From Eledone cirrhosa (taxonomy: Eukaryota), in the NCBI GenBank assembly GCA_964016885.1, contig OZ024753.1, positions 14,942,001 to 15,006,000 of the forward strand: a DNA stretch of 64,000 nucleotides. Reading direction: 5' to 3'. Below the pieces are notes generated by a model. The model had not been told where the DNA came from, made no database searches, and was given only the letters and a program-made list of their open reading frames with translations. Positions 20,173 through 20,750 of the stretch are shown one piece after another. The position numbers and the translations under genes were made by a program. How positions within the stretch are numbered: the stretch's first letter is position 1; each line of letters begins with the position of its first letter.

Positions 20173-20322
20173 CAGAAGTGGTTACACAACAGTTAGTTCA
20201 CCATACCGAGAACAATTGTTTCACCTTGCGGATCCTCAGCTCGTAAATGTGATTACGAGCTGAGGATTCGCTAAGGTGAAACAATTGCTCTCGGTATGGT
20301 GAACTAACTGTTGTGTAACCAC

Positions 20323-20358
<36 letters not shown>

Positions 20359-20750
20359 GTGGTTACACAACAGTTAGTTCACCATACCGAGAACAATTGT
20401 TTCACCTTGCGGATCCTCAGCTCGTAAATGTGATTACGAGCTGAGGATTCGCTAAGGTGAAACAATTGCTCTCGGTATGGTGAACTAACTGTTGTGTAAC
20501 CACTTCTGTATATATATATATATATATATACAGAAGTGGTTACACAACAGTTAGTTCACCATACCGAGAACAATTGTTTCACCTTGCGGATCCTCAGCTC
20601 GTAAATGTGATTACAAGCTGAGGATTCGCTAAGGTGAAACAATTGTTCTCGATATGGTGAACTAACTGTTGTGTAACCACTTCTACCTAACTCGTCCCAT
20701 GAACTGAGTGCTCTACCACTATGGATATTACCTTCCAGTGTTCTACCACT
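20173..20750. repeat. Three tandem ~155 bp palindromes separated by (TA)n, each with two opposed minimal hammerhead motifs
   Basis: Units 20173-20327, 20354-20508, 20531-20684. Minus strand: cgag CTGAGGA tcc-gcaa-ggt GAAA caattg TT ctcg. The plus strand carries a variant copy. Confidence 0.85.

What the first reader, a model, noticed from the sequence alone, without database searches (positions are those of the whole stretch)
20173..20750. Tandem trimer of ~180 nt rod-like units with hammerheads in both polarities (retrozyme or viroid-like architecture)
Seen: three ~155 bp palindromes joined by (TA)n, with a period of ~177-181 bp. Each carries a minus-strand motif cgag-CUGAGGA-ucc(gcaa)ggu-GAAA-caauug-UU-cucg and an opposed plus-strand variant. 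The plus-strand cleavage triplet is GCU in units 1-2 and GUU in unit 3. Established: minimal type I HHRs with a palindromic stem III occur in PLE pseudo-LTRs and non-LTR retrozymes and cleave as dimers; tandem copies release monomers that can circularise. Inference: a read-through transcript could self-process into ~180 nt AU-rich rod-shaped RNAs with ribozyme motifs on both strands, an organisation recalling avocado sunblotch viroid but genome-encoded. A plainer explanation is one PLE fold-back insertion later amplified through the TA tracts.
Basis: partly seen in the sequence, partly recalled or inferred. Interest (0 to 1): 0.85.

Follow-up and report, generated by a model that had tools for sequence, protein, structure and literature searches.

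The report
Locally triplicated Penelope-like retrotransposon fold-back end
Three side-by-side copies of a short palindrome whose two arms are the hammerhead-bearing end of a common Penelope-like retrotransposon, likely left by one truncated insertion and likely tripled in place by DNA copying errors; the RNA is predicted to zip into a hairpin that blocks self-cutting, so it is likely an ordinary transposon remnant and not a viroid-like circle.

Summary
The anatomy is confirmed. Three 155-bp palindromes are joined by (TA)13 and (TA)11, each with a hammerhead-type motif on both strands. The viroid/retrozyme reading is not supported.

Each arm is the 3' end (pseudo-LTR, pLTR) of an abundant Hydra-clade Penelope-like element (PLE). 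I found the parent: an RT + GIY-YIG-type ORF with the Hydra motifs and a telomerase-like fold. The genome has at least 282 such head-to-head palindromes; 42 of 46 sampled have different centres, so they arose independently. Unit 3 carries the PLE 'tail'.

The trimer's centre occurs only here. A private G/C letter marks its junctions as mirror copies of the left flank, pointing to DNA fold-back template switching.

On either strand the antisense arm is transcribed before the ribozyme arm. The hammerhead folds lie 58-124 kcal/mol above the hairpin in read-through RNA. Plus-strand units 1-2 have lost U16.1. No family copy (0 of 101) starts at the cleavage site.

Not settled: read support for the trimer was inconclusive, transcription is untested, and the parent motif may well be a real ribozyme.

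The parts
20173..20327 (.). Unit 1: inverted short pLTR arm + centre + direct short arm, ending in the private G
20328..20353 (.). (TA)13 junction; with its flanking G and C it is a mirror copy of the left target flank
   Evidence: (I6)
20354..20508 (.). Unit 2, identical to unit 1
20509..20530 (.). (TA)11 junction
   Evidence: I7
20531..20685 (.). Unit 3: inverted short arm + centre + start of the long arm; three differences from units 1-2
20685..20749 (+). 65-nt PLE tail between the two inferred RT start sites; present once, on unit 3
20207..20243 (-). Type I minimal hammerhead motif, GUU, U.U at the base of a 2-bp stem II, palindromic stem III (unit 1)
20388..20424 (-). Same motif, unit 2
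20565..20601 (-). Same motif, unit 3
20256..20293 (+). Hammerhead motif with U16.1 changed to C (GCU); predicted inactive
20437..20474 (+). Hammerhead motif, GCU, unit 2
20614..20651 (+). Hammerhead motif, GUU, one stem I mismatch, unit 3
20240..20259 (+). Centre of the palindrome, where the two 5'-truncated copies are joined; this 20-mer region is found only in the three units
20158..20172 (.). Left (TA)n target tract, shared with the neighbouring element
20750..20769 (.). Right (TA)n target tract

Best explanation
The trimer is three same-orientation copies of a palindrome whose arms are the hammerhead-bearing 3' ends of a Hydra-type Penelope-like retrotransposon; it likely began as one heavily 5'-truncated insertion in a (TA)n tract, was likely tripled in place by DNA template switching, and its RNA is predicted to form an inert hairpin. 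Step 1 (structure shown; mechanism inferred from Frangieh 2024): the PLE protein cut a (TA)n tract and primed two cDNAs at two start sites 65 nt apart. Both stopped just past the hammerhead and were joined head to head, giving a short arm, a centre, and a long arm with tail. Step 2 (inferred from the private G/C marker): while the right arm was being copied, the new strand folded back onto the left arm, copied the left flank in mirror image, and re-annealed to the (TA)n upstream. That yields a direct duplicate lacking the tail. Step 3 (inferred): a later slip or unequal exchange duplicated that unit. Step 4 (predicted): any transcript meets the antisense arm first, so the ribozyme arm is paired as it emerges and neither monomer nor dimer hammerheads form.
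For: Parent: L040 is (TA)n - inverted arm - 585-aa open frame - 3' UTR - hammerhead - tail - (TA)n. The window arms match it at 73/75, 73/75 and 133/140. 20 of 30 ORF-start loci carry a direct 5' pLTR piece, 11 of them through the hammerhead. Hydra motifs are present and the best fold match is TERT. Abundance: 2,194 and 5,919 exact matches for two pLTR words, and 282 head-to-head palindromes. Independent origin: 42 distinct centres in 46, tail on exactly one arm in 36 of 46, and no whole-unit tandem among the 46. Two 3' end sites: 28 short and 15 long of 53 arms. Local amplification: the centre 20-mer has 3 matches genome-wide, all here. The G(TA) junction is absent from 274 other arm contexts. 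L037 shows the same mirror replacement of a flank, 185-nt arms at 91%. Folding gaps in read-through RNA are 58-60 (monomer) and 116-124 kcal/mol (dimer). They are 65-74 for a dimer even when the RNA starts at a unit's centre, against 11-20 when the antisense arm is held unpaired.
Against: The template-switch path is inferred from one marker letter and one analogous locus. No read or contig spans the trimer, so the unit 1 = unit 2 step could be an assembly error. Energies are secondary-structure equilibrium models and ignore kinetics and proteins; the anole PLE ribozyme cleaves only with the PLE protein. The minus-strand cores are intact in 3 of 3 units, and a U.U at the base of stem II is compatible with cleavage in an axolotl retrozyme.
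Confidence: 0.8

Rival explanations
1. Same PLE origin, but the triplication (or the identical unit 1 = unit 2 pair) is an assembly or consensus error at a palindrome flanked by (TA)n; the genome holds a monomer or a dimer.
For: Units 1 and 2 are identical. No other whole-unit tandem was found among 46 palindromes or at the other 8 of 10 TA-joined arm sites. No contig spans the junctions.
Against: Unit 3 differs from units 1-2 at three sites and the TA tracts differ in length, so at least the first duplication looks older than the assembly (allelic mixing not excluded). Mirror-flank products occur elsewhere in the assembly (L037). The laying tool skips these repeats, so the gap proves nothing.
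Confidence: 0.13
2. The array was made at insertion: the PLE reverse transcriptase repeatedly re-primed on (TA)n, or copied a multimeric or circular RNA of the unit.
For: PLEs make complex tandem/inverted insertions. Repeated short end-fragments separated by (TA)n occur at L037.
Against: All three units share one non-templated centre, private arm variants and a flank letter not in the element, so they descend from an already inserted DNA copy. No second locus carries them.
Confidence: 0.04
3. The trimer works as a non-LTR retrozyme or viroid-like unit: read-through RNA self-cleaves at successive minus-strand hammerheads and ligates into 177/181-nt rods.
For: Three intact minus-strand cores in direct tandem at retrozyme-like spacing. 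Stem III can pair 8/8 between copies. Animal retrozymes are reported to derive from PLE pLTRs.
Against: The antisense arm precedes every ribozyme arm and the gaps are 58-124 kcal/mol. The putative circle is 93% paired. There are no daughters. The core is the minimal PLE type, reported as weak even as dimer or trimer. 0 of 101 family arms begin at the cleavage site.
Confidence: 0.03

Closest known systems
Hydra-clade Penelope-like elements (Craig et al. 2021, PMC8557442; passages seen)
   Same: Under 3 kb; C-terminal GIY-YIG-type domain; RWK/R, DKT, CxCx5C, CxxC and CxH motifs; hammerhead in the pLTR; (TA)n targets; inverted 5'-truncated copy; tail on one end.
   Different: The window holds only the non-coding ends. 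The tail is 65 nt against the 30-40 bp quoted for PLEs. The hammerhead has U.U, not G-C, at the base of stem II. The local triplication is not part of the element.
Minimal hammerheads of metazoan PLEs (Cervera and De la Pena 2014, PMC4209133; parts 1-2 of 4 read)
   Same: Short stem I, palindromic stem III, dimer-dependent; that paper already notes pairs on opposite strands 100-700 bp apart.
   Different: Stem II is 2 bp rather than 7-8 and lacks G10.1-C11.1; the opposite-strand pair here is back to back.
Animal non-LTR retrozymes (De la Pena and Cervera 2020, PMC7229834, passages; Li et al. bioRxiv 10.64898/2026.07.22.740005, part 1 of 5)
   Same: Tandem units of 150-450 bp, each with a type I hammerhead, related to PLE pLTRs.
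   Different: Each unit here contains its own full antisense copy. It is a single locus with no mobilised daughters, and expression and circles were not seen.
Avocado sunblotch viroid (review PMC6466107; passages)
   Same: Rod-like fold, hammerheads with short stem III in both polarities.
   Different: In the viroid the two polarities are non-equivalent motifs in an RNA replicon. Here they are one motif mirrored in a near-perfect DNA palindrome, with no sign of an RNA stage.
Anole Poseidon PAc mechanism (Frangieh et al. 2024, PMC11167929; parts 1-2 of 4 read)
   Same: Two internal RT start sites delimit the tail; AT-rich targets; uncleaved RNA is the main template.
   Different: A different PLE clade; here the start sites coincide with TA in the element and are inferred from genomic ends only.

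Membership tests
PLE (parent family) | Single ORF with telomerase-like RT and GIY-YIG endonuclease | tested here: met
   585-aa frame with YRDD. The AF2 model (pLDDT 85) has TERT as best PDB match, E 3e-8. Atlas look-alikes carry HTH_animal, RVT_1 and GIY-YIG. Direct Pfam on P0001 gave no hit; 1 of 46 aligned proteins hit RVT_1 and 1 of 46 hit GIY-YIG, so the endonuclease call rests on motifs and look-alikes.
PLE (parent family) | Direct and inverted pLTRs, 5' truncation, tail at one end | tested here: met
Hydra clade | RWK, DKT, CxCx5C linker, CxxC and CxH around E/N | tested here: met
   CxCx5C, CxxC..E and CxH are in P0001; RWR and DKT are in longer copies L043-L045. In the alignment: 41, 45, 41, 45 and 43 of 46.
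Hydra clade | Under 3 kb, (TA)n insertion, hammerhead in pLTR | tested here: met
   About 2.45 kb from ORF start to tail in L165 plus about 290 nt of 5' pLTR/UTR; TA flanks.
Hydra clade | Phylogenetic placement with reference Hydra RTs | not tested
   No named reference sequences were on hand.
Minimal type I hammerhead | CUGANGA / GAAA core, NUH, stem I, palindromic stem III | tested here: met
   3 of 3 minus-strand motifs and 1 of 3 plus-strand motifs (with a stem I mismatch); units 1-2 plus strand fail NUH.
Minimal type I hammerhead | G10.1-C11.1 pair | tested here: not met
   U.U flanks a 2-bp stem throughout the family; an active axolotl motif also has U.U.
Minimal type I hammerhead | Self-cleavage | not testable with these tools
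   Indirect only: 0 of 101 arms start at +36 to +43 around the cut at +39.
Non-LTR retrozyme | Two or more consecutive tandem units with a complete hammerhead motif | tested here: met
   Minus strand, 3 of 3; met at motif level only.
Non-LTR retrozyme | Hammerhead fold accessible in the multimeric transcript | tested here: not met
   Predicted gaps of 58-124 kcal/mol.
Non-LTR retrozyme | Dispersed arrays or copies of the same unit | tested here: not met
Non-LTR retrozyme | Expressed linear and circular monomers | not testable with these tools
   No RNA run could be laid.
Avsunviroidae-like RNA | RNA-to-RNA replicating circle with active ribozymes in both polarities | tested here: not met
   Both polarities are one retrotransposon motif mirrored in DNA; plus-strand U16.1 is lost in both units that would bound a circle. 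Replication itself is not testable here.
MITE (Tc1/mariner type) | Uniform copies with fixed interior and terminal inverted repeats | tested here: not met
   Centres differ (42 in 46), arms are unequal, and the parent is a retroelement.

The most novel reading that the evidence does not exclude
Penelope-like twin priming is a factory for short rods with a hammerhead in each polarity (at least 282 in this genome). At this locus DNA fold-back has put three in tandem, so that, with help from the PLE protein or a helicase, the minus-strand RNA is cut at GUU and closed into 177/181-nt circles: a genome-born, viroid-shaped RNA caught at birth.
Probability: 0.03. Interest if true: 0.8.

Novelty: new member of a known kind. 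Interest (0 to 1): 0.2.

Why it matters
As it stands it is a decayed transposon end, useful mainly as a caution: hammerheads in both polarities in a rod are the default product of head-to-head PLE ends and would pass motif-based retrozyme or viroid-like screens. The family data are a small mechanistic bonus. They show two RT start sites at TA microhomology, no copies starting at the ribozyme cut, and a possible capped start just 5' of the ribozyme. If the circle were real, it would give a testable route from retrotransposon ends to viroid-like RNAs.

Tried and rejected
Rfam scan: only sub-threshold hairpin miRNA models at the locus among the 150 rows listed.

MITE reading, prompted by the CAG...CTG ends and TA flanks: rejected. 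The terminal C/G is private to this locus and the parent is a retroelement.

Serial fold-back at each TA alone: rejected, because all three centres have the same orientation.

Read support: no RNA holder listed, which is no evidence either way. Three contig sets of one sample and one RAD-seq run were laid; no piece spans the stretch and the tool skips the TA repeats, so this is inconclusive.

Pfam and PDB sequence searches with P0001 gave nothing significant.

A fixed transcript start as the sole cause of the minimal palindromes: only partly supported. 23 of 92 palindrome arms stop at ATTAC, but only 4 of 101 unselected arms do, and direct 5' pLTRs extend 108-564 nt further upstream in 7 loci. 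The pile of ends at -145 to -157 looks like an alignment stop at subfamily divergence and was not counted as real ends.

Earlier scan findings: three look-ups returned nothing.

Literature: six searches; in what I read of the hits I saw no description of a tandem array of back-to-back PLE ends. Lünse 2017 was not listed and not read. The supplements of Craig 2021, which list Hydra families and their hammerheads, were not opened and may already include this family.

Full report
Observation. The window shows three 155-bp palindromes (20173-20327, 20354-20508, 20531-20685) joined by (TA)13 and (TA)11, all in the same orientation. A unit folds at about -124 kcal/mol on either strand. Each unit has a type I hammerhead motif on each strand. 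The minus strand has GUU in all three. The plus strand has GCU in units 1-2, and GUU with a stem I mismatch in unit 3. Unit 3 continues into 65 nt of non-palindromic sequence before (TA)n. The genome is 3.0 Gb. From recall, its repeat landscape looks like an octopus-type mollusc; I did not test this.

The unit is a family member. The unit search gave 1,054 candidates, 40 scored, 92-96% alike outside the window. Exact words from the arm occur 2,194 times (hammerhead 31-mer) and 5,919 times (22-mer downstream of it), with 0 for reversed controls. Back-to-back hammerhead pairs within 30 nt occur at 282 sites. I fetched 46 of the first 50 listed; the four left out had already appeared among the likeness-ranked hits. 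The 46 have 42 distinct centres. A tail sits on exactly one arm in 36, on neither in 9 and on both in 1. None is a whole-unit tandem; one has a partial second core. Palindromes with hammerheads in both polarities are thus made repeatedly and independently.

The parent. L033 held an inverted arm, about 880 bp of broken coding sequence and the long arm. Searching with it gave L040: (TA)n, inverted arm, 585-aa open frame, 3' UTR, hammerhead, tail, (TA)n. The window arms match this copy at 73/75, 73/75 and 133/140. The protein has 308 relatives; the 120 listed are 36-50% identical and mostly about 700 aa. Its model's best solved match is telomerase RT, and Atlas look-alikes carry RVT_1 and GIY-YIG; Pfam itself misses it. 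It has the motifs Craig et al. give for the Hydra clade. Of 30 loci with the ORF start, 20 have a direct 5' pLTR piece, 11 of them through the hammerhead. Inverted truncated copies and a one-sided tail are standard for PLEs, and opposite-strand minimal hammerhead pairs were noted in 2014.

How the monomer formed. Among 53 arms from position-ordered loci, 28 end at the short site and 15 at the long site, both directly into TA; the other 10 alignments stop elsewhere, mostly at indels. This matches two internal RT start sites bounding a tail, as shown in vitro for the anole element. Two cDNAs joined head to head is my inference. Of 101 arms anchored downstream of the ribozyme, none starts at +36 to +43 around the cut (+39), and 35 start between +13 and -5. 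The inserted copies therefore came from uncleaved RNA, as in the anole system. This does not show that the ribozyme never cuts.

How the trimer formed. The centre 20-mer occurs three times in the genome, all here. The junction reads arm-G-(TA)n-C-inverted arm. The C is already at the left edge of unit 1, and this G(TA) ending is absent from 274 other arm contexts. The right ends of units 1-2 are therefore mirror copies of the left flank, which is what a fold-back followed by re-annealing in (TA)n would give (inference; template switching at inverted repeats seen only as search listings). Ten sites join a short end to an inverted short end within 40 nt. Two are ours. The other eight are fragments, single units or the larger mirror at L037, with 185-nt arms at 91%. 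The one tail-TA-arm site leads into a long element. Unit 3 differs from units 1-2 at three sites, so the first duplication looks older. Units 1 and 2 are identical and could be recent or an assembly error; reads did not decide.

Could it work as a retrozyme? Head-to-head geometry puts the antisense arm first on both strands. Forcing the hammerhead fold costs 58-60 kcal/mol (monomer) and 116-124 (dimer) in read-through RNA. It costs 65-74 for a dimer even if the RNA starts at a centre, against 11 (minus) and 20 (plus) when the antisense arm is held unpaired. The would-be circles are 93% paired and 62% AU, against 63.7% AT for the window. Results that cut the other way: the minus-strand cores are intact and pair 8/8 in stem III. 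The U.U at stem II departs from the usual G10.1-C11.1 but occurs in an active axolotl motif. The U-CC...GG-U arrangement is kept in a 77%-identical relative with another loop, so the parent motif is plausibly a real, perhaps protein-assisted ribozyme. The energies ignore kinetics and proteins.

Side result. In 13 of 16 palindromes with an arm stopping at ATTAC the next letter is a G not found in the L040 template (16 of 22 arms). A capped RNA start there would explain it: cap-copied G and an initiator-like TCC/ATT, both recalled and not from a call. D. virilis Penelope starts within its pLTR. Only 4 of 101 unselected arms stop there, so this is a lead.

Papers seen: PMC8557442, PMC2377424, PMC7229834 and PMC6466107 as passages; PMC4209133 and PMC11167929 parts 1-2 of 4; bioRxiv 2026.07.22.740005 part 1 of 5; others as listings only; no supplements.

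Verdict. A real, well-described, ordinary object: a back-to-back pair of Hydra-type PLE ends amplified in place. New member of a known kind, interest 0.2. The viroid-like reading stays at about 3% until cleavage or circle data exist.

Noticed in passing
window 19731-20157: A second family with the same build directly upstream: tail-bearing inverted long arm plus short arm, centre near 19993, hammerhead motif (stem III AUGCGCAU, UA triplet) in both arms. 517 candidates; Hydra-like ORF remnants lie upstream of several copies.
   Followed up: partly
window 25075-25390: A third head-to-head palindrome with CUGAUGA...GAAA motifs at 25149-25109 (-) and 25313-25353 (+); related solo motifs at 8479, 29746 (-) and 46975.
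   Followed up: no
window 19661-19742: 12-bp mirror of the neighbouring element's tail end across (TA)29, a second small fold-back around a TA tract.
   Followed up: partly
window 4056-4932 (+): Broken ORF similar to the same PLE protein type, 28-47% to P0001 in pieces.
   Followed up: no
L069-L083, L085-L104, L172-L182; window 20251-20252: A G not found in the L040 template precedes ATTAC at many palindrome centres (13 of 16), a possible capped transcript start 4 nt before stem I.
   Followed up: partly
L037:1447-1816: 370-bp palindrome around one family unit with repeated end fragments separated by (TA)n on both sides; no tail.
   Followed up: partly
G000:C1:143.34-143.79 Mb: Family copies recur on the same strand about every 50-60 kb, suggesting a large segmental tandem array; L066-L068 also hold a 77%-identical related pLTR.
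   Followed up: no
fetched loci: At least eight other minimal-hammerhead families with different palindromic stem III sequences lie in the flanks.
   Followed up: no
window 52025-52563: Three tandem copies of a 183-bp unit that looks like a SINE-type repeat (recalled, not tested).
   Followed up: no
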